Origin: Perkinsus olseni
Lineage: Eukaryota
Length of the DNA stretch: 47,255 nucleotides
Direction of reading: 5' to 3'
Assembly: GCA_013115125.1 (NCBI GenBank)
Contig: JABANN010000252.1
Coordinates: 1-47,255 of the forward strand
Numbering within the stretch: the first letter of the stretch is position 1; every line of letters begins with the position of its first letter. The position numbers and the translations under genes are program-made. Positions 8,656 to 47,183 of this stretch are shown one piece after another. Under the pieces are notes generated by a model. That model searched no databases. It saw only the letters and a program-made list of their open reading frames with translations, and was not told the origin of the DNA.

Positions 8656-9115
8656 GTAGGCAGCCACCTCTTCGTTAACAACGCCCTTATGAGTTCGGGA
8701 GATGCTTTGGGTGAGAGGGGAGCCTTCGGCTGATGAACTCGGAGGGGCTGTTGAAAAAACCATACCGAAAAAAATAGCGTTTGTCTTGGACGAGTTGGTA
8801 GGGCACGGCCATACGATGGTCTGCTCCTACTTCTGGGGTTCACGGCAGGTATTGCCGTGACCTACTTCTTGCCCAATTTCGTGGCTCGCAGTAAAGGAGG
8901 CAGCCGCTGCATGGCCTGCTGCTTCCTTTGATGGTTTGGGTAGTAGTGATAGCACGGGTTCATGACGGTGTTCTGACCATGCCACGATCTCTTGGAGGTC
9001 TGCCACTAGCCGTCCTTGTGTTGTTAACGCAGTAGCGGGGGGAATCGTCAGCGGACCTGGCAGTTGGCTCACAGTCGTCGTCGCTGACTACCATTGGTCA
9101 GCTACTTTTTGGATC

Positions 9116-10764
9116 ATGCCTGCATGGGAGGAGGCCGATAGGGCTGATGAGGAGTCCACGCCTGCCCATCACAGGGGGGCTAGGCTGCACGACCCGACCT
9201 CAGTGCGAGGAGTTGGGGTGGCTGATGATATCGGTGCCAGACCGGACATGGAGGACTCCTACGTCTTCATAGACGCTTTTGGTGGCAAAAGCAGCTCGGC
9301 GTTTATGGCGATGTAGGTCATGATTCGGGGGAGGGTCCTTGGAAGGTGTGGGATCCGCAGGCGTCACCCATAGATACGACGGCCATGGTGGACGCCGGTG
9401 TGTTGACTTTGTGTCCAAACGCTTGCATGAGGAAGTGTTGAAGAACCTGACACTAGATCCGCCTCCAGAGCCACCGGACGAGGGCGAGAAAGAGAAGGCG
9501 GGAGGACCCACCCCTTGGGCTACCATGACCTTCACAACGGCCATGTCTTCTGGTGGGCTGCTTCGGATGGCTGCAGTGGAACCGTGTCGAATGCCAGGAT
9601 CGACCTTGGATACGCGGCCTCAGTATGTCTACGCTACTGAGGCCTTAGTAAACGCCTACACCCAGACAGACGAGGCCTTTCGGAATGAACTACAGTCCTT
9701 GGAAGGAGGATGTAGGCCACGGCTGCGAAGTGGAGCTTTCCTTGTGCATCGTGCTGTACACTGTGAAGTCGCCGCGTCGCTCAGCAGAAAGGGTGCCGCC
9801 GCCGGCTGTCATCACGCCAACAGTGGGCTTCGAGAGATCTTCCAGATGCCAGCCGCTGCTGCCTTGGCTGAATCATTACTCCCTCCCTCAGGCACTGCCG
9901 TCACGTGCTTAGTACAGTATGAATTCGGTGGCGACAGGACTCTCTACTGTGCGCATGTTGGTAAGGGAATCTTGAGCTCATCATGGGCAGTTACGGGTTC
10001 AGGAGATTCCCGAGCGGTACTGTGCAGGGGTCGGAGGGCTCTGCGATTGACTAGTGATAGCGACCATAAGGCCACTGACCCGGTAGAGGTGGCCCGGATA
10101 ACTCAGAAGGGAGGCAGGCTAGGGGTAGGCAGGCCGGAGGACATTGTTATCATCGTGAGCAGGTATAGTGGTGAATGATCGGGTGAACGGTATGTTGGCA
10201 ATAGCACGGGCATTGGGAGACTTCCAATTGAAGCGGACGATATCGGCCGAGACGGTGGCCCGAGCGGCGAAGGCCCGGGAGGAGGGGAAGGAGATGCCGC
10301 CGGTCTTTGGTAATGTGGCTGGTCACCAGTGGCGTATTCGAGGTTGATGCTGGCAGGAAACGTTACTGATATAGTGTCCAACATCCCTGATGTAGCCAGC
10401 ATTGTTCTGAAGGAAGCTTCGGACCACTTCTTGATCCTGGCCTGTGATGGCGTCTGGGACGTCATCACCGACCAGGAGGCGGTACGCCGGGCTATAATTT
10501 CATGGCGCGCGACATCTCTGCCATGTGGTAGGTTGACTTAGCGCTAGAGGTCCTCTCCAAGCTCACACAGGCTCAGTTGGCCACACCCAAGGAGGGGAGG
10601 AAGTGGCCGATGCGGTGCGGGACTGTGGCTCAAGTCACAGCGACTGCCTTGGTACGGACACCACCAGCGACGGCGGCGGCGTCCACTGGCCCAGTGGTCA
10701 GGTACAGGAGGCCTTGAGTCGAGGAAGCCTGGATAACGTTACAGTGATGATAGTGTTGTTGTGA
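9116..10764 (+). CDS. Protein phosphatase 2C (PPM family), multi-exon; true start may be upstream
   Basis: Motifs GARPDMED, YDGHGG, GTAVTCLV, CAHVG|DSRAVL, DHKATDPVEVARI, RVNGMLAIARALGD, FLILACDGVWDV and GSLDNVTVMIVLL* (stop 10762-10764). Confidence 0.93.
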
Positions 10765-11040
10765 GCAGCAGCAGCAGCAGCAGCAGCCCACCCTCCTCCG
10801 CATGCGTCGTTTCGCACGTCCACTGATTATCCAGTACAATCCACCTGCTGCTGTTGTTGAGTACAGTACGGCTCACTTCTGGCGGGAACGGCTGGACCCG
10901 AGAGGATTTTCGGGCGCGCGCGGTTGTCGGCGCAACTACTCGCGGCGCCGAAAGGAGCCCAGAACGCCGTGAGAACGGCCGTCCGACCTCTCCCAGGCCC
11001 CACTCTCTTTTTTTTTCTACTTCAAGCCCCTCTCTCGGGC

Positions 11041-12645
11041 ATGCTATACTCTACTCCCCTTCTGGCCGCCCTTTCTACCCCCTATGCAGTGATGTTCGCT
11101 GCAGCTGACCAGTACCCACTCCAGGACACCTGCCGCCACTATGAGAGATACTTTCAGGCCCCACCGACCTCCGAACGCCGGCCCTCATCGTATTGATTCG
11201 TTGATGTCGAGTGCTGCCACCACGGCAGCCGCCGCCGCCGCCCTTCCCAGCGTGAGCAGCTGTGACTCTCCTCCAGTTAGTGATTTGCAGTCTGCCAGGC
11301 CTGGGCCCCCACCTTCCCGTCATTGGCCTCCCGAGCCCCCTCGAAGCAGCACCCGCGGGAGGCCCCTCATGCGTGGGTGGAATGGTGGCGGGAGGTAGGT
11401 CTTGTCTACCAACAGCATGGGGGGGGAGGTCCATCAATGACCATTCAGGCTGCCCAGCGGTCGCCGTCCTCTTGCTCCATCCAAAGCCCTCGGTCACATG
11501 AATCGATCCACATTCACGTCACTGCTGGCAGCAGCGCTTTCTCTGTCGAGAGGGTGTCAGGCGACTGTTACGACCTGAACGCTGCCGTCATAATAAGGTG
11601 GGGCTGCCGGAGCTGCCCCGTGAGAGATCGTAGTTCCCTTCCTCAGAGACAGAACGGTTAATGCCACAGACAAAGACCTCCTAAGCAAGCTCAGCGTAGA
11701 GGGTCCCCCTCTGGCCTGTGAGTCGGCCTTCCAGTCCCTAGCTGGGGTACTCCACAGTGGACCCTATGCGTCTATCGATGAGGCTGTGCGAGGGATGTGC
11801 GCCTTTTTCTGGCCGCAGCAGGAGAGGACGGACCCGTCAGTGACTCAGACCGTGCAATGGATCGATCAGGTGGACTCGTGCAGGGGTATGAAGGAAGGGA
11901 CGTTATCACTGTTTCCTCCGTCAGGTTGTACCGTTGTCATCTTCGCATAGCACCGAGGTGGAGCCCGGGTGCAGCCTGTCTGACGATCTCAGCGGTCAAC
12001 AAGTGCAAGTGATTGGTGATGGCGATGGTGGCATTGTTATCAGAGGAGACTGTTATGGTGACCAGGAAAGGCGTACTGCACTCAGGTAGGCTACAGTGAA
12101 GGCCATTGCAAGCGATTACTGATCTCATTGGTCAGGCACGTCCAGTCATCGGCAGAGCTGGTAGCGCCCGAAGTGGCCGGGGCGGTTCGTTCCGGTCGGG
12201 ACTGCAAGGAGGTGTATCGGGCCTTTGGTATGGCGGAGGGAGGGAGTGTGGAAGCTGCTGTTGGGGCGGTGTGCGTGCTGATCATGAACTCCATTACCCC
12301 GGCGACTACTAGTGCTGTTGTTCTGCCGACTGTGGTTAATGAGGCAGGACGGACAACAACAACACTACCACCATTCGTACTCGAGAGCAGGCCTAGGGCA
12401 ACGCTGCCGACGGCTGATGCTATCATGGACGCGACTGACCCTTCTAGTACATCGAGCGAGATGGTAACAAGCTCGCCAACAACGAGGGCAACTACCACCA
12501 CCACGACTACCACCAGCACTACCATCGCAACTAGTGCCACGACTATTTCCACCACGACCCCCAGCACGACTGCCACCACGACTACTTCCACTATTACCAT
12601 TACTACTACTGTTACTCCAACCACCAGCAAGACCACTACTACTAT

Positions 12646-12682
<37 letters not shown>

Positions 12683-15282
12683 GCCTCTACTGCTGCTGCC
12701 ATCACTATGCGTACAACTCCGATGGTGACGACGCTGTCTCCCACAGCTGAGGAGGAGGAGGCAACCACCAGCGACGCCTCTGAGGCCCTTCCCAAGGGGG
12801 CTTGGCTGGACTGGGTGGGTGGGTGTCTCTGGGGCGGTGACGCGGTCCTTGCCGCCTCTCGGGAATCTGGCTTTACTAGGTCTATTGTAGCCCTTCGTCG
12901 TGCATGACTCCGAACAGTTGTCTAGTCGGTTGAAGTGCTCATGATCAGATACAAGAAAGGAAAACGGTGGTTCGTCTCATGTGCCTCTTGTCCTACCCCC
13001 CGGACCAGATATTCTTCGGTATCACTTCGACCACCACGGGAAAAGTAAACCATTGGGTTACCAGGAGAACCATCTCAGTCTGGCAGTGGGAACCTTTCAG
13101 GGAGCCTACCGCGTGCAAGTTGCTGGAAAATGCCGGAATTCGGAGCCTCCTAGGAAGTAAGATCTGTTCTTCCCTTCGAGGTTGGTGGACTGTCTCTCGC
13201 CACTTCTGCTCAACCGGCGGTCGTTTCCGCTTTATCCAACAGTCACCATGGTGGTCCATAAGGCCGTGTTATCGTTACCGACGCCCCTCGTAGGGTACGG
13301 GTTCGTCCTGCTGCTGGCTTCCTACCCGACAGCGGCATCCAAGTGGCCGAGTCAAAAGACTGGAACTGCCTTGGCATCTTCAAGTCGTTCGGGCTCAGCC
13401 CGCAGCTCACTGTGAAGGAGGCTGTAGATGAACTCTGCGATCGGAGTAGTCCCGCCAAGCCCGCAACCAAGCTGTATAATGACACTAGGCCCGCTACGGC
13501 ACCAACTGGGTCGAGCTCCGTAGGACGGGTGGTTCCCTTCTCACCTTCGAGTGAATATTAAGTACAGTCCCAGCCGCAGATTTGGACCAGTAGCCCTCTT
13601 CAGGAGTCCTTTTACTTATGCAAAGGGGTGCAGGTCGGAGGGCAGTACTTTGGCCTGTCGAGGCCTGAATCTTCCGAGTCATGGGATACTATATGGCACC
13701 TGCATGCACGCTGCAACTACGAGGACACCAGCATGGGGCTTCATCCGAGGTCAGACGCCTTTTCTGTAGTAGTGGATAGAAATGCCTTGTTATGAGCTTG
13801 AGCGTTGCCCTTACTGACGCTGATCTATCTCTCCCGCTCCGTTTTAGAAAACCGATGGTCTCTCCCGGAATGGTTTCTATTTGAGATTATGATTAGTCCC
13901 AGAATCTCCTGAATTTGGCGGTGTATGGTACGCTAGCCAGGTATTCCGCCACGAAATCTAGATGGATTGAGTCTAGCCAGAGTATTTAGTATACAACGGC
14001 GACGAACAACAATTAATGACCGTAGACGAGTTTACGCTATCGGATGGGCCTGCCTTCTCCTCTGTGTTCCTTTACCCTACCAGGCACCTGGATAAGATAG
14101 TCGCAGTCGGGAGGCCACCAAAGGACTGCCCAGATCTACTCAACATGTTCTACGTTCATGAGGGGAAGTCACCCGATGAGGTTATCCGGACGGTCTGCAT
14201 CCGCCATTTCCATCCTGAGATCACCAAACACGCCAACACTCGAAAAACGTTTCGGCAACTCGGAACGAGCTGGCCCTCCTGGGTAAGCGAGGCGAGTGCT
14301 CCCTGCTAGACGGTAGGGAGTTGTGCTGTGGTAGGTTCAGTTTGGTCGCTATCAGCAAGTTGACCAGTGCCTCATCATGTTGAATAAAGATATCTTCGTG
14401 CTCTACTATCAGCCTACGGGCGCCGGATCGAAGTGGAAAGGTCTAGCTGAGTGCCCGGGAGGCCGTGGGAAGGAGGACACTACGCTGTAAGCCTGAGTTA
14501 CGCAGGCCCGATGGTGTGGTAGTTTCCGCTTCCTTCAGGATTCCCGTGGGAGGCTTTGTTGCACCAAAAGGCGTCGGCGGGTATCGATCTTGTAGTCGAC
14601 TTTTCCACTACGTTATTGGTGATGCTACTTCGGATGCCCCTACGGCGGTGTCGAGGATCTGTGATGGGTTGACTGATGGAGGGGACAGTCGGCAACCGGG
14701 GAGGGTCAGGACTAACCCCACCAATCTCCCCACCAGCAGGAGGAGGCAGATGGTTAATAACAGGCGGACCTTCGCTAGGCCCTCATTCGTTAGCGATAGA
14801 GGTACCTACATCCAACCGACAAGGGATCTCACTACCACCTCTGTAGTGCCTCTATCGGTTGCCCCTGTGCCCAAGCAGCGGAAGGGTATCGCTTGCTCAT
14901 CGTACGACGGGCGCCAAGCAGTCAGCTTCCACATGATGAACGACATTGGCCGTAGCATATGGAGACTGGATGGCAGCTGTTATGCTCCGGGAACTAATGT
15001 GATGAGGAAGTAAGCATCCGTTCGGGCGTTGCTGCTGCACGCCGGCTCTCGGTGACGGCCTTACCTATCCGCCTCTACTGTTGAGCGATGGATGTTTTCA
15101 GGAATCTCGTCACTTACGTGGTAACTGATAGGGTCCTCTCCCAGTGCAAGGATCTGTTCTATTATCTGGCCCCCACCGCCAGGAGCAACCAAGCTTACAC
15201 CAAAGCCTTCTGCTCGCTCTTTATCAGTGGCTCGCCCACAGGCAGCACTGGCCGAGCTGGCAACGTAACTCAACTCTCTTGA
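11041..15282 (+). CDS. Large putative secreted/surface protein with six Cys-paired repeat modules and a Thr-rich mucin-like linker
   Basis: Hydrophobic N-terminus MLYSTPLLAALSTPYAVMFAAAD. C-x21-26-C motifs at 11717, 12203, 13367, 14127, 14591 and 15145. Thr-rich tract at ~12480-12700. Several in-frame GT-AG junctions were checked by hand (e.g. VMRK|NLVTY); others were not resolved. Confidence 0.6.
12480..12700 (+). repeat. (ACT/ACC)n low-complexity tract encoding poly-Thr
   Basis: Runs of actact/accacc translate as TTTTT in the 12128-12907 frame. Confidence 0.9.
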
Positions 15283-16710
15283 TGGGACTTTGGACTCGCC
15301 TCTTGCTCTCATCAGATACGGGCGAGTAGAATCAATACCATCGATCATTGCATGCTCGTGGACGGCGACTTCTTCGTTATTTATCATAAGCGTCTTCCCA
15401 GCTCATCCCGGTGGACTCTGGATGCCAGCTGTCCCGACACGAGGGAGTCTGACGGCGTTAGGAGGTGGGGCATCTGGTTCGGCGGCGACTAGCTTTTCCT
15501 GTTGTGCCATCTGTAGGGGTCAGGCAGGCGTGATAACCGTCGTTCAGAACTGCTTTCTGGGGCCAAGTTGACTAGACTCCACTCAGCTTTGATGAAGGGA
15601 TTTACGCCAATTCTGCATGCCATGGATTGCCTTCGCTCGCCGTGCGGGTCAGCAGGATTGGTTGCCTCTCAGGGGTCTCACCAAAGTGGTCCCCTTCCAC
15701 GCCAAGTCCGACGCATCCTGTTCGCAAATATTACAAGCAGAGAAGATACGCAGTTCTACAACCGCGGCAGCCGCGATTAAGACCATCTGCGATCGGCATT
15801 TTCCAGGCGCGTGACGAAGCGGGCGCCTCTTTCCCGATTTCGGTCTATTTTCTGTGGTTAACTTGTCTTGTTACATGATTCCTGTTCATTACTGTGCGTG
15901 TTTACTTCGTGTCTTCTTGAGACCCCCTCTTACCCGCGTTCGGCGTGGCTTCATCTCCTTGTGTTGCAGTACTGAGTGTTGGCTACTGGACATGCCTGTG
16001 CAAGTAGCGAGCTTTTCAGAACAACTCGGGGATGCTCCCGTATGTCACGACTCATGAAAGGCATACAACGGAGGGAATCCTGACCAAATTATCTCCGCAA
16101 AACCCTTATTCGTGGGAGGAGGACTTGCCGAAACGGGATGAGCGAACTGAGCATGAAGAATGTCTTCGTTTACTGAAGCAATTCGCAGTTGAACTCTAAA
16201 CACACCAACCGAGTAGTCTGCGTTGTTGTGACATGTTCGACTCACCGTCGATTCATAAGCCTTGAAGGGGCTCATTATATCGCACTCGGAACAACACGAC
16301 CGAAGGAGCGTCAAGAACACATCATTTGGTTGGATGCTGACAGTCGTGGGGAAGCGGCGATTCGGTGCATCACCGCTGTTTCCAGGCGTCGTCATTGGCC
16401 TTCGCTGATTGCGGAAGTTGTTCTCCGTCTCCACCAGTCGCTCTCTCGAATCCTCTCAGTAAATCCATGTAAGCTGGAAAAGCCTCCTCGAAGGCAACAT
16501 CGGCCCCCGAACCTAACGGGCCGTCGAACTTCATTTCACCCCTTCCCTTCCTAGTCGCTTCTGTAGCGGCAGAGAGCTCGAGTGCTTCGGACCGTCCGTG
16601 AGAGCCGTGCTTCTCATCAATTTCCGCGGTGCTCTTCTGTGTAGCCCTATGCTCGGTATTGGCTTCTGCTGGCCTGGGGTCGTCCCTCCTCGTTAGGGGA
16701 CTCCTTTCAC

Positions 16711-25745: not shown

Positions 25746-26515
25746 GGGTGTGGTTACACGGGCCAGTCAAGTGTAGTGGTGTCACCACCATGCTATGGAG
25801 TACCTTAGGGTGTGGTTACAGGGGCCAGTCAAGTGTAGGTGTGTCACCACCATGCTATGGAGCTCTTTAGGGTGTGGTTACAGGGGCCAGTCAAGTGTAG
25901 GTGTGTCACCACCATGCTATGGAGTTCTTAAGGGTGTGGTTACAGGGGCCAGTGGTTACACGGGCCAGTCAAGTGTAGGTGTGTCACCACCATGCTATGG
26001 AGTTCTTTAGGGTGTGGTTACAGGGGCCAGTGGTTACACGGGCCAGCCAAGTGTAGTGGTGTCACCGCCATGCTATGGAGTACTACTAGGGTGTGGTTAC
26101 ACGGGCCAGTCAAGTGTAGGTGTGTCACCACCATGCTATGGAGTACTTTAGGGTGTGGTTACACGGGCCAGTCAAGTGTAGGTGTGTCACCACCATGCTA
26201 TGGAGTTCTTTAGGGTGTGGTTACAGGGNNNNNNNNNNNNNNNNNNNNNNNNNNNNNNNNNNNNNNNNNNNNNNNNNNNNNNNNNNNNNNNNNNNNNNNN
26301 NNNNNNNNNNNNNNNNNNNNNNNNNNNGGCCAGTGGTTACACGGGCCAGCCAAGTGTAGTGGCGTCACCGCCATGCTATGGAGTACTACTAGGGTGTGGT
26401 TACACGGGCCAGTCAAGTGTAGTTGTGTCACCACCATGCTATGGAGTACTACTAGGGTGCGGTTACACGGGCCAGTCGAGTGCAATGGTGTCACCACCAT
26501 GCTATGGCGTACTAC
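25746..26515 (+). repeat. ~62-bp minisatellite array (about 11 visible units) interrupted by an assembly gap
   Basis: Unit gggtgtggttacacgggccagtcaagtgtaggtgtgtcaccaccatgctatggagtacttta repeats head-to-tail. Some units carry an internal duplication of gtggttaca(c/g)gggcca. Confidence 0.97.
26229..26327. other. Assembly gap (N run)
   Basis: Run of n characters inside the minisatellite. Confidence 1.
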
Positions 26516-26898
26516 CTTTTATGACTGTGCCTTCCAGCAGGGACTCCTTCTTCCCTTCACATGCCCGCTACACCTTACGCTTCATCGCCCAGTCCCCGAC
26601 GGCGATATTCCCCTCCTCGGAAGCACCATCAGCATCGGCACCCAATGACTGGCAGTTCAATGCAGTCTGCATCCCTCGTGCGGCAGTCGATGAGCACCCC
26701 AAGGCCCTCCCCAGTTAACTCTACTCCCGCAGCGGCAGGAAGGTGACGCGGCGTGTCACCGTGCCCCCGCCGTAACTTCTGTTTCAACTAAGCTTGGTCG
26801 GTAGCGAACATCACAGTGATTGCTGTCAGGTACCATCAACTGCCCCCCAAGCGAGTCCAGGCCGGGAGCCTCGTGTCATCTGATCGTCAAATCAATAG

Positions 26899-45568: not shown

Positions 45569-45946
45569 TCAAGAGCACTTATCACCCTCTTCAGTAGCAG
45601 GAATGAGGGCCTCAGTCAAGCCTGTGCATCCAAAGAGCTCATCATTACAGGAGCTGGTCACACACCCTCTGCACGAAGCAGCCAGGTTATCGAACAGGCA
45701 AGAGAAAATGCAAGACCTGATGGCGCACCATGAGTAGGCGTCGAAACAGTCAGCACACGGAGGACTGAGCCCACAACCAGATACGAGATGTGGCGGAATC
45801 TCACTGGTAAAGAAGCCGGCGTCACCGCTACATTTGTAAAAAAAGTTGGAGAATGAGGCGGTTTTGATCTTCTGCTTGTCAACATTGTTACAGGCATTAT
45901 CAGCCACCACAAGGGCGATGATCACAACGTTGACGAGAAAGTGCAT
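45569..45946 (-). CDS. Small secreted cysteine-rich protein (125 aa)
   Basis: Signal-peptide-like MHFLVNVVIIALVVA, followed by a dense Cys pattern GLSPPCADCF...WCAIRSCIFSC...SCRGCVTSSC...GCTG; single exon. Confidence 0.8.
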   Translation of the reverse strand: MHFLVNVVIIALVVADNACNNVDKQKIKTASFSNFFYKCSGDAGFFTSEIPPHLVSGCGLSPPCADCFDAYSWCAIRSCIFSCLFDNLAASCRGCVTSSCNDELFGCTGLTEALIPATEEGDKCS

Positions 45947-47183
45947 TCTCAGATTATTGGGTTCAAAGCAACTGAGGCTAAAGACAGAAATTCGGCGACA
46001 GATTCTGAAATGAGCACCACAACTCGGTTAAGTATGAACGAGACCCAGGGCAACGCAACCGGACAGTCAGGTCCTGACTCGAGGCGGGAGAGGAGAAAAA
46101 TGCTACAGCTCGATCTATAGCGTAGTTTCATCGTTTGCGCCATCCACGCGAGTTTTAGGGGCGCGGAAGTCCCCTCTTCGGAGACGATTCGACAGAATTT
46201 GCTCAGGTCTGATGGTATGCGCTAACAGCAAAGGTCCAGTTACTGATCTGCCGGCTGGTAGCTGCGACAACGGCGAGAAGTTGCCATTTTTCATGTTGAC
46301 ACTCCATGCCATGGCAATGAGACAGCGCTTCGCACGCAGGCTGAGATCAGCCCGCAACTGCAACCCGCAGCCCGCAATGAAGTTGAAGTAGGACCCGCGA
46401 GTGGATTTATCTATCCCTTCCGAAAGGATTCCCGATGATGGCGATGTAATTCAGTTACTGTACAGGTAGCTGAACCAACTGGTTCAAGAATCATACACAA
46501 CGATCCATTCCTCGACATACTGCGTGTCACTCGCGGGGGGCTGTCTACTCGTTCCCATTATCACGTGCGTATCTCTGATACATACGATACCGGTACTTAC
46601 AAAGGCCGTATGAAGGGAAAGTTGTTGATAAACTGTATGTGGTGTTGGGTTCGTAGCTCGGCTCTCATCGTGAAACAGCACAGGCCCCTCTCTTTCTCGC
46701 TCAAAAACCGCCAAACGGTCAGGCGTCATAGGTCTCAGTTGGGGAAATGACAAGTCTCTCGGTATTCATAATCCACTGTTGCAATGTCCCCTGGCCGGGT
46801 GTGCTCCACAGATGATCCGTTATGGCCCTTAACTTATGGGATATCATCCGAGCGAAGTGTCTTGGAGCAAGGAAAGGATCAGGCAACGCCGCCGCTGTTA
46901 TTCGCGAACAACTTTGTCGGTTCAGATGAGCACAATACGAGCTGATCGACTACTGGCGGCAGTCAGAGCCGAAACTCCCAACCCGAGAGCCCTGATCTCT
47001 TGGATATGCCTCGAGATGATGAGTTTGCCCCCAGTTTCGGCGCTGAAGTAGCGATGCTCGCCAAGAGTGAGATTCTCACTGTGAGAACGTCACTTTTTAT
47101 AATGGTGATTGGCCACCCCGTCTGCTGTCGTGCTGCGGCCCTTCAAGCCTCTGCTAGAAGTATGTATATGAGGCGGAACTTCG

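What the first reader, a model, noticed from the sequence alone, without database searches (positions are those of the whole stretch)
11041..15282. Six-module Cys-paired secreted protein hidden across fragmentary ORFs
Seen: six + strand exons share one motif. They are CESAFQSLAGVLHSGPYASIDEAVRGMC (11717), CKEVYRAFGMAEGGSVEAAVGAVC (12203), CLGIFKSFGLSPQLTVKEAVDELC (13367), CPDLLNMFYVHEGKSPDEVIRTVC (14127), CSRLFHYVIGDATSDAPTAVSRIC (14591) and CKDLFYYLAPTARSNQAYTKAFC (15145). Four are exactly C-x22-C with hydrophobic residues at positions 4, 5, 8, 20 and 23. Five are preceded by a second, beta-like Cys pair ending VSGDCY, IRGDCY, WHLHARCNY, WKGLAECP or WRLDGSCY. The DNA has diverged beyond visible similarity, so the duplications are old. 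Inference: this is one ~1000-aa secreted protein with six tandem ~100-aa two-disulfide domains that I do not recognise as a named family. It may be a lineage-specific adhesin or surface-antigen architecture, analogous to but not evidently homologous with apicomplexan SRS/6-Cys proteins.
Basis: partly seen in the sequence, partly recalled or inferred. Interest (0 to 1): 0.75.

Follow-up and report, generated by a model that had tools for sequence, protein, structure and literature searches.

The report
Seven-module mucin-like Perkinsus secreted protein
A shellfish parasite (Perkinsus olseni) transcribes one spliced gene for a 1,075-residue, probably secreted protein made of seven old copies of a four-cysteine domain that matched no catalogued family, plus a threonine-rich mucin-like stretch; the layout recalls parasite wall proteins, but its job is untested.

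Summary
All 11 motifs sit where stated. Spliced contigs from 4 public runs show 14 of 17 introns directly; 3 more follow from contig lengths and other gene models. The gene has 18 exons and encodes 1,075 aa (ATG 11041, stop 15812-14), with a spliced-leader end at 10996. There are seven modules, not six, and exactly 28 Cys (7 x 4). Each module has a phase-2 intron 7-11 codons after Cys2, and 6 of 7 beat all 500 Cys-fixed shuffles in a leave-one-out test. A 171-aa linker (40% Thr) follows module 2; no membrane anchor is evident. Homologues were found only in P. olseni; Pfam, NCBIfam, PDB and the ESM Atlas gave nothing usable. Two NCBI models wrongly fuse it to the upstream PP2C gene. The only fold model is poor (pLDDT 35), so fold and function are unproven. 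Best reading: a secreted O-glycosylated wall or surface-matrix protein, built like Toxoplasma CST1 but without detectable SRS homology. The scan holds no look-alike on other DNA.

The parts
10995..10996 (+). AG trans-splice acceptor; mature transcript starts at 10997
   Evidence: One contig of run X17 carries 9 loose letters here which, with this AG, equal the last 11 nt of the P. marinus leader PmaSL1 (PMC3101222 passage)
10997..15945 (+). Whole transcription unit: 18 exons, 17 GT..AG introns of 45-334 nt, 3,403-nt mRNA
11041..11106 (+). Start codon and putative signal peptide (about aa 1-22), in exon 1
   Evidence: Best 16-aa Kyte-Doolittle mean 1.67 from aa 7; same start in model P0006; SignalP not available
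11374..11385 (+). WxxW motif before module 1 (aa 81-84)
11449..11869 (+). Module 1 (Cys codons 11473, 11566, 11717, 11798); phase-2 intron 11598-11646
11925..12274 (+). Module 2 (Cys codons 11970, 12051, 12203, 12272); phase-2 intron 12086-12135
12299..12811 (+). Thr/Ser-rich mucin-like linker, aa 320-490 (69 Thr and 18 Ser of 171; core 55 Thr of 91)
   Evidence: open through the repeat also in model P0003, with a different repeat sequence
12803..12814 (+). WxxW motif before module 3 (aa 488-491)
12949..13519 (+). Module 3 (Cys codons 12982, 13131, 13367, 13436); extra phase-0 intron 13045-13100 and phase-2 intron 13157-13293
13604..14282 (+). Module 4 (Cys codons 13619, 13712, 14127, 14196); phase-2 intron 13750-14083; exon ends in the third WxxW (14271-14282, aa 729-732)
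14335..14801 (+). Module 5 (Cys codons 14368, 14452, 14591, 14660) and basic linker; phase-2 intron 14487-14538
14847..15264 (+). Module 6 (Cys codons 14894, 14978, 15145, 15211); phase-2 intron 15010-15101
15316..15814 (+).
   Evidence: same last exon in model P0002
15815..15945 (+). 3' UTR as far as contigs reach
   Evidence: contigs of X1, X17 and X4 end at 15942-15947
10702..10842 (+). Last exon of the separate upstream PP2C gene (stop 10762-10764); not part of the finding, but public models fuse the two genes
   Evidence: joint 10650-10701 in 3 of 4 runs, contigs ending at 10818 and 10842; ORF end; Pfam PP2C on P0001

Best explanation
One SL-trans-spliced gene of Perkinsus olseni encodes a 1,075-aa protein built by old tandem duplication of a two-exon cassette (a beta-rich exon with one Cys pair, a phase-2 intron, a two-helix exon with a second Cys pair). 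SHOWN: exon structure, transcription in spliced form, seven homologous four-Cys modules, Thr-rich linker, no long hydrophobic tail. INFERRED: the N-terminus takes it into the ER, each module closes two disulfides (most simply C1-C2 and C3-C4, one pair per exon), the linker is O-glycosylated into a stiff spacer between a two-module head and a five-module tail, and the unanchored protein is exported. Most likely job (inferred): a multivalent structural or coating component of the cell wall or glycocalyx, working like Toxoplasma CST1 (tandem disulfide domains plus a Thr mucin stretch) but with an unrelated domain.
For: Joints and leader. 28 Cys = 7 x 4 in one frame. Phase-2 intron after Cys2 in 7 of 7 modules and a phase-0 intron before 6 of 7. 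Leave-one-out homology. 27 of 28 Cys unchanged in every one of the 7 database proteins that covers them, with 1-4 proteins per site. Linker 40% Thr. CST1 has 13 SRS domains plus a 263-aa Thr-rich mucin domain needed for wall rigidity (PMC3873430 passages). Perkinsus cells have a wall that thickens in hypnospores (PMC8792838 passages). P. marinus trophozoites expose GalNAc and Gal (PMC7053492 passages).
Against: No localisation, proteomic or stage data. The signal peptide is modest (two Pro, no basic n-region) and untested by a predictor. One allele has Phe for the second Cys of module 6 (P0002). The fold model is low-confidence (mean pLDDT 34.6), so neither the fold nor the disulfide pairing is shown. 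The Perkinsus glycan evidence is from another species and names no protein. CST1 has a predicted GPI anchor; none is evident here.
Confidence: 0.5

Rival explanations
1. Released multivalent host-directed protein: the modules bind or block host lectins, proteases or haemocyte receptors, and the mucin stretch acts as spacer or lectin decoy.
For: No anchor. Module 5 is the most variable among database alleles, 85-91% identity in 3 comparisons against 94-96% for most gap-free comparisons of other modules. No orthologue detected outside P. olseni, which would fit fast evolution. Bivalve galectins bind GalNAc/Gal on Perkinsus (PMC7053492 passages).
Against: Modules 1-4 of P0003 differ from the window at 14 positions against 7 of 312 in the neighbouring PP2C part, a small difference. 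No dN/dS was possible. Single copy in this assembly at the sensitivity tested, unlike expanded antigen families.
Confidence: 0.2
2. Polyprotein precursor cut into single ~100-aa domains, as prosaposin or nematode polyprotein allergens are (families recalled), each carrying a small hydrophobic ligand between sheet and helices.
For: Basic pairs occur in several linkers. Modules differ widely in pI, 4.5-9.4. The helical half has a conserved hydrophobic face.
Against: No cleavage motif is shared by the linkers. No saposin or lipid-binding Pfam family rang at E up to 1. A 171-aa mucin stretch is more typical of an intact extended protein.
Confidence: 0.12
3. Cargo or scaffold of a secretory organelle of the zoospore (microneme-, rhoptry- or extrusome-like) rather than of the wall.
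For: Tandem disulfide modules and WxxW motifs are common in apicomplexan adhesins (PMC6939170 passages). WxxW ends the exon before modules 1, 3 and 5.
Against: No TM or cytoplasmic tail. The motifs lack the downstream Cys that apicomplexan DPY19 enzymes needed in vitro. No stage information is available from the runs.
Confidence: 0.12
4. Two genes split in the Thr repeat, or a fusion with the upstream PP2C as in NCBI models FOZ61_004345 and FOZ62_004616.
For: No listed contig bridges 12620-12699. Two public models show the PP2C fusion.
Against: Contigs enter the same open exon from both sides and stop about 13 nt apart by my reckoning from record lengths, inside a repeat that the tool skips. 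P0003 reads through it. PP2C has its own spliced last exon and stop, and the leader marks a new 5' end at 10997. Model P0006 starts at the same Met as here.
Confidence: 0.04

Closest known systems
Toxoplasma CST1 (SRS44 name recalled) and SRS13 cyst-wall glycoproteins (PMC3873430 and PMC6939170, passages)
   Same: Signal peptide, a tandem array of disulfide domains and a long Thr-rich mucin stretch in an alveolate parasite with a wall; public gene model wrong at the 5' end in both cases.
   Different: CST1 uses 13 SRS beta-sandwich domains and has a predicted GPI anchor. Here the modules are four-Cys, half of each is predicted helical, the SAG Pfam family does not match, and no anchor is evident.
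Plasmodium 6-Cys (s48/45) and Toxoplasma SRS domains (PMC9309271, passages)
   Same: Secreted, tandem ~100-140-aa disulfide-held domains, lineage-restricted.
   Different: Those are beta-sandwiches with up to six Cys paired C1-C2, C3-C6, C4-C5. No Pfam or PDB sequence match here, and the C3-C4 half shows helical hydrophobic periodicity.
Cryptosporidium GP900 (as described in PMC3873430, passages)
   Same: Poly-Thr mucin-like region in a large secreted-pathway glycoprotein.
   Different: GP900 has a transmembrane domain. Low-complexity likeness is not homology; no shared domain was tested.
Gel-forming mucin Cys domains with WxxW (PMC12990085, passage)
   Same: WxxW motif at the start of Cys-rich domains that flank Thr-rich segments.
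   Different: No mucin Pfam family rang. Cys number and spacing differ (mucin pattern recalled). At most convergent.
Prosaposin-type polyproteins (recalled)
   Same: Tandem small modules with helices stapled by a disulfide.
   Different: Saposins are all-helical with six Cys (recalled). No saposin family rang in Pfam, and half of each module here is predicted beta.

Membership tests
SRS / 6-Cys (s48/45) | Match to the family HMMs | tested here: not met
   No such family at E up to 1 for 2 proteins and for 4 proteins plus 14 exon pieces; HMMER filters drop most matches above about E 0.1
SRS / 6-Cys (s48/45) | All-beta sandwich fold | tested here: inconclusive
   The single-sequence model gives strand-strand-strand-strand-helix-helix in modules 6 and 7 but mean pLDDT is 34.6; helical moment exceeds strand moment in 7 of 7 first helices and 6 of 7 second helices
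SRS / 6-Cys (s48/45) | Up to six Cys paired C1-C2, C3-C6, C4-C5 | tested here: inconclusive
   Four Cys per module in 7 of 7; degenerate 6-Cys domains with fewer Cys exist; pairing not determined
SRS / 6-Cys (s48/45) | C-terminal GPI signal (typical of SRS, present in some 6-Cys) | tested here: not met
   Protein ends 7 residues after the last Cys; none of the 25 most hydrophobic 19-aa windows lies near the C-terminus; no GPI predictor was run
Mucin-type wall glycoprotein (CST1-like architecture) | Long Thr/Ser-rich segment | tested here: met
   87 Thr+Ser of 171 residues
Mucin-type wall glycoprotein (CST1-like architecture) | Signal peptide | tested here: inconclusive
   Hydrophobic stretch aa 7-22, mean 1.67, in its own exon and kept in P0006; no predictor available
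Mucin-type wall glycoprotein (CST1-like architecture) | O-GalNAc glycosylation and wall localisation | not testable with these tools
   A pattern from a recalled transferase motif found 0 matches in the genome, which is uninformative
DPY19 (C-mannosylation) substrate | WxxW sequon in a secreted protein | tested here: met
   3 motifs against a mean of 0.22 in 20,000 shuffles, P about 0.001, noticed after the fact
DPY19 (C-mannosylation) substrate | WxxWxxC as needed by apicomplexan enzymes in vitro | tested here: not met
   No WxxC in the protein; requirement from PMC6939170 passage
DPY19 (C-mannosylation) substrate | A DPY19 gene in the genome | tested here: inconclusive
   0 candidates for PF10034, controls also blank; the same kind of search does find PP2C exons, 49 matches
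Saposin-like polyprotein | Match to saposin HMMs; six-Cys all-helical module (recalled) | tested here: not met
Any solved fold | Structural match clearly above background | tested here: inconclusive
   Best Z 6.3 (rmsd 4.1, 89 aligned, a designed protein) and 5.9 (rmsd 3.5, 95 aligned, Dcp1 EVH1) of 48,161 chains, straddling two modules; Foldseek best E 0.015, Pur-alpha; the model is low-confidence

The most novel reading that the evidence does not exclude
The four-Cys beta-sheet-plus-two-helix module is an undescribed domain of Perkinsozoa that arrived at the CST1 design (tandem disulfide domains plus a mucin rod) independently of SRS proteins and serves as a structural protein of the Perkinsus wall. 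The WxxW motifs before modules 1, 3 and 5 mark a two-module higher-order unit, acting either as an assembly latch or as a C-mannosylation site outside thrombospondin repeats.
Probability: 0.25. Interest if true: 0.65.

Novelty: new variant of a known kind. Interest (0 to 1): 0.42.

Why it matters
It gives a corrected, transcript-supported model for a gene that two public records file under a PP2C phosphatase, and it defines a repeated domain that no library searched here recognises. If it is a wall or surface-matrix protein, it would be a named candidate for the glycosylated Perkinsus surface that bivalve galectins bind, and an example of convergence on the CST1 layout in a sister lineage of apicomplexans. 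The caution is that orphan secreted Cys-rich proteins are common in parasitic protists, and nothing here shows function.

Tried and rejected
Homologue searches: three word-indexed searches (306, 7,999 and 8,000 candidates scored) gave only 7 P. olseni proteins; they need shared exact 5-mers, so distant orthologues can be missed. The 50%-representative library gave 0 hits and did not return the query's own cluster, so it is uninformative. ESM Atlas: no usable hit in 2 searches. Metagenome contigs: 59 pattern matches, 0 confirmed. Pfam: only PP2C on the fused model and two chance-level hits at E 0.055 and 0.099. NCBIfam: one hit at E 0.013, far below its cut-off. PDB by sequence: best E 0.61, none for the combined alignment. 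Paralogues: own-genome searches found only this locus. A module HMM run on spliced candidates from 80 stretches (645,493 bases, 1.6% of the assembly; 1,465 candidates including the window) gave at most 6.4 bits outside this gene, against 8.8-22.2 bits leave-one-out; this excludes only a very large dispersed family. The two halves of the module are not homologous to each other (hhalign probability 0.5%). SAG family search of the genome: blank, controls blank too. No RNA holder is listed as RNA on record; the spliced joints themselves show processed RNA. Alignments A3 and A5 misplaced the beta halves and were not used. An alignment-based model of a single module could not be obtained, so superposition of modules stays untested. 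Literature searches listed no paper whose title or abstract start describes this protein; subscription papers and supplements were not seen, and Perkinsus proteomics supplements may bear on localisation.
Full report
VERDICT. The region is one spliced, transcribed gene of Perkinsus olseni (named by database hits at 100% identity over the query). It encodes 1,075 residues with seven four-cysteine modules and a threonine-rich linker. The module matched nothing in the libraries searched; the overall layout is a known kind. Function and fold remain inferred.

1. OBSERVATION. All 11 quoted motifs are present, the six main ones at the stated positions. Four are C-x22-C, one x26, one x21. The hydrophobic pattern holds in 6 or 7 of 7 modules at each named position. 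Third-position identity between modules averages 0.29 over 10 pairs and self-blastn finds nothing significant, so the duplications are old.

2. GENE STRUCTURE. Contigs of 4 public runs (4 of 18 listed, at most 4 studies; none on record as RNA) were laid on 10500-16500. Fifteen joints are shown, all GT..AG: 14 in this gene and 1 in the upstream gene; 3 more were not displayed. Three further introns (11112-11157, 11252-11298, 13520-13603) follow from record lengths: 305 laid letters predicted and found for the 5' contig of X17. They also appear in independent models P0001 and P0006. One contig of X17 has 9 loose letters at 10995 which, with the genomic AG, equal the last 11 nt of the P. marinus spliced leader PmaSL1 (PMC3101222, passages). 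The 18 exons give one frame from ATG 11041 to stop 15812-15814. Against a single transcript: no listed contig bridges the (ACT)n repeat at 12620-12699, which the tool skips. For it: contigs enter that one open exon from both sides, about 13 nt apart by my reckoning from record lengths, and model P0003 reads through it with a different repeat sequence. Models FOZ61_004345 and FOZ62_004616 fuse the gene to the upstream PP2C. The contigs contradict this: PP2C has its own spliced last exon and stop (10762-10764), and the leader marks a new start.

3. THE MODULE. The protein has exactly 28 Cys, in seven groups spaced C-x26..30-C-x24..33-C-x21..26-C. In leave-one-out HMM tests 6 of 7 modules beat all 500 shuffles that keep the cysteines in place; module 1 was reached by 3 of 500. 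Pairwise support is uneven: 9 of 21 pairs had at most 5 of 500 shuffles reaching them, 7 of 21 were at chance level; modules 5 and 7 are closest. Independent of sequence, a phase-2 intron lies 7-11 codons after Cys2 in 7 of 7 modules, and an intron lies 5-16 codons before Cys1 in 7 of 7, phase 0 in six and phase 1 in module 6. This is the signature of a duplicated two-exon cassette with one Cys pair per exon; it suggests, but does not show, C1-C2 and C3-C4 disulfides. Of 28 Cys, 27 are unchanged in all 7 database proteins where covered (1-4 proteins per site); one allele has Phe at Cys2 of module 6. A single-sequence AlphaFold2 model of P0002 has mean pLDDT 34.6, with 290 of 326 residues under 50. 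It places strands and helices in the same order in modules 6 and 7 (sheet first, helices from Cys3 to Cys4). Helical periodicity in the Cys3-Cys4 half and strand periodicity before Cys2 (5 of 7) agree. Fold searches with this model gave only background-level matches (best Z 6.3, rmsd 4.1, 89 aligned; Foldseek best E 0.015). A better, alignment-based model was not obtained.

4. OTHER PARTS. The N-terminus has a modest hydrophobic stretch (aa 7-22, mean 1.67) followed by the first intron, and is kept in P0006. Residues 320-490 hold 69 Thr and 18 Ser of 171. The most hydrophobic 19-aa window (1.72) overlaps the last helix of module 2, and the chain ends 7 residues after the last Cys, so no TM or GPI tail is evident. 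There are 2 N-glycosylation sequons. A WxxW motif ends the exon before modules 1, 3 and 5: 3 seen against 0.22 expected, P about 0.001, noticed after the fact, and kept in other alleles. WxxW is the classic C-mannosylation sequon (PMC12990085, passages), but apicomplexan enzymes needed WxxWxxC in vitro (PMC6939170, passages), which is absent here, and no DPY19 was found in the genome by an inconclusive search. A structural role is the safer reading.

5. DISTRIBUTION. All 7 homologues found are P. olseni records. The locus is single in this assembly by protein and DNA search, and no paralogue appeared in a 1.6% sample scanned with the module HMM. Because the duplications are old, orthologues in other Perkinsus species are expected; the searches were too insensitive to exclude them, and the large representative library lacked even the query. 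Pfam, NCBIfam, PDB sequences, the ESM Atlas and metagenome contigs gave nothing usable. The scan's own notes hold no look-alike stretch.

6. HOW IT MOST LIKELY WORKS. Shown: trans-spliced, cis-spliced transcript; seven homologous modules; mucin-like linker. Inferred: ER entry, 14 disulfides, O-glycosylation of the linker, export without an anchor. I put 0.5 on a multivalent wall or glycocalyx component. The analogy is Toxoplasma CST1, with 13 SRS domains and a 263-aa Thr-rich domain needed for wall rigidity (PMC3873430, passages). Perkinsus has a wall that thickens in hypnospores (PMC8792838, passages), and P. marinus trophozoites expose GalNAc and Gal that bivalve galectins bind (PMC7053492, passages). 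Rivals: a released host-directed binder (0.2; module 5 is the most variable), a polyprotein cut into single domains (0.12), cargo of a zoospore secretory organelle (0.12), and two genes or a PP2C fusion (0.04).

7. COMPARISON WITH KNOWN FAMILIES. It is laid out like CST1/SRS13 but is not filed as SRS or 6-Cys: the HMM test and the anchor test were not met, and the fold test is inconclusive (PMC9309271, passages). Saposin likeness is recalled and was not supported by Pfam. PMC2868825 and PMC11074326 were searched by term and gave nothing relevant. Five literature searches listed no paper describing this protein, judged from titles and abstract starts; no supplements were read, and subscription papers are not covered.

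8. NOVELTY AND SCORE. New variant of a known kind: an unrecognised domain in a familiar secreted architecture. Interest 0.42. The gene structure is solid and corrects public models, but orphan Cys-rich secreted proteins are common in parasitic protists and neither fold nor function is shown.

Noticed in passing
window 8966-10842, +: Upstream PP2C gene; NCBI models FOZ61_004345 and FOZ62_004616 drop its last exon, which holds the conserved C-terminal Asp-Asn motif (recalled), and fuse it to the module gene.
   Followed up: yes
window 13725-14111: One contig of run X17 covers the 334-nt intron unspliced: retention, pre-mRNA or DNA.
   Followed up: no
window 14225 to 13299: One low-depth contig of run X2 joins backwards from module 4 to module 3; probably a library or assembly artefact.
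   Followed up: no
window 14802-14846: A 45-nt in-frame intron without a stop, the only phase-1 intron; model P0001 keeps it as coding, contigs of 4 runs splice it out.
   Followed up: yes
P0002 versus P0007: One P. olseni record has Phe in place of Cys2 of module 6, leaving an unpaired Cys; another record keeps the Cys.
   Followed up: partly
P0003/P0006 and P0005/P0007: Records with the same locus-tag prefix give two different versions of the same region, consistent with alleles or recent copies.
   Followed up: no
window 26182-26720, +: A stretch of N followed by a tandem repeat of about 63 nt that reads as a Cys/Tyr/Gly-containing peptide repeat.
   Followed up: no
window about 45570-46027, -: A 152-aa open frame with a signal-like hydrophobic segment followed by several cysteines; another probable small secreted protein, not matched by the module HMM.
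   Followed up: no
window 10751-10801: (CAG)n repeat just after the PP2C stop codon, in its 3' UTR.
   Followed up: no
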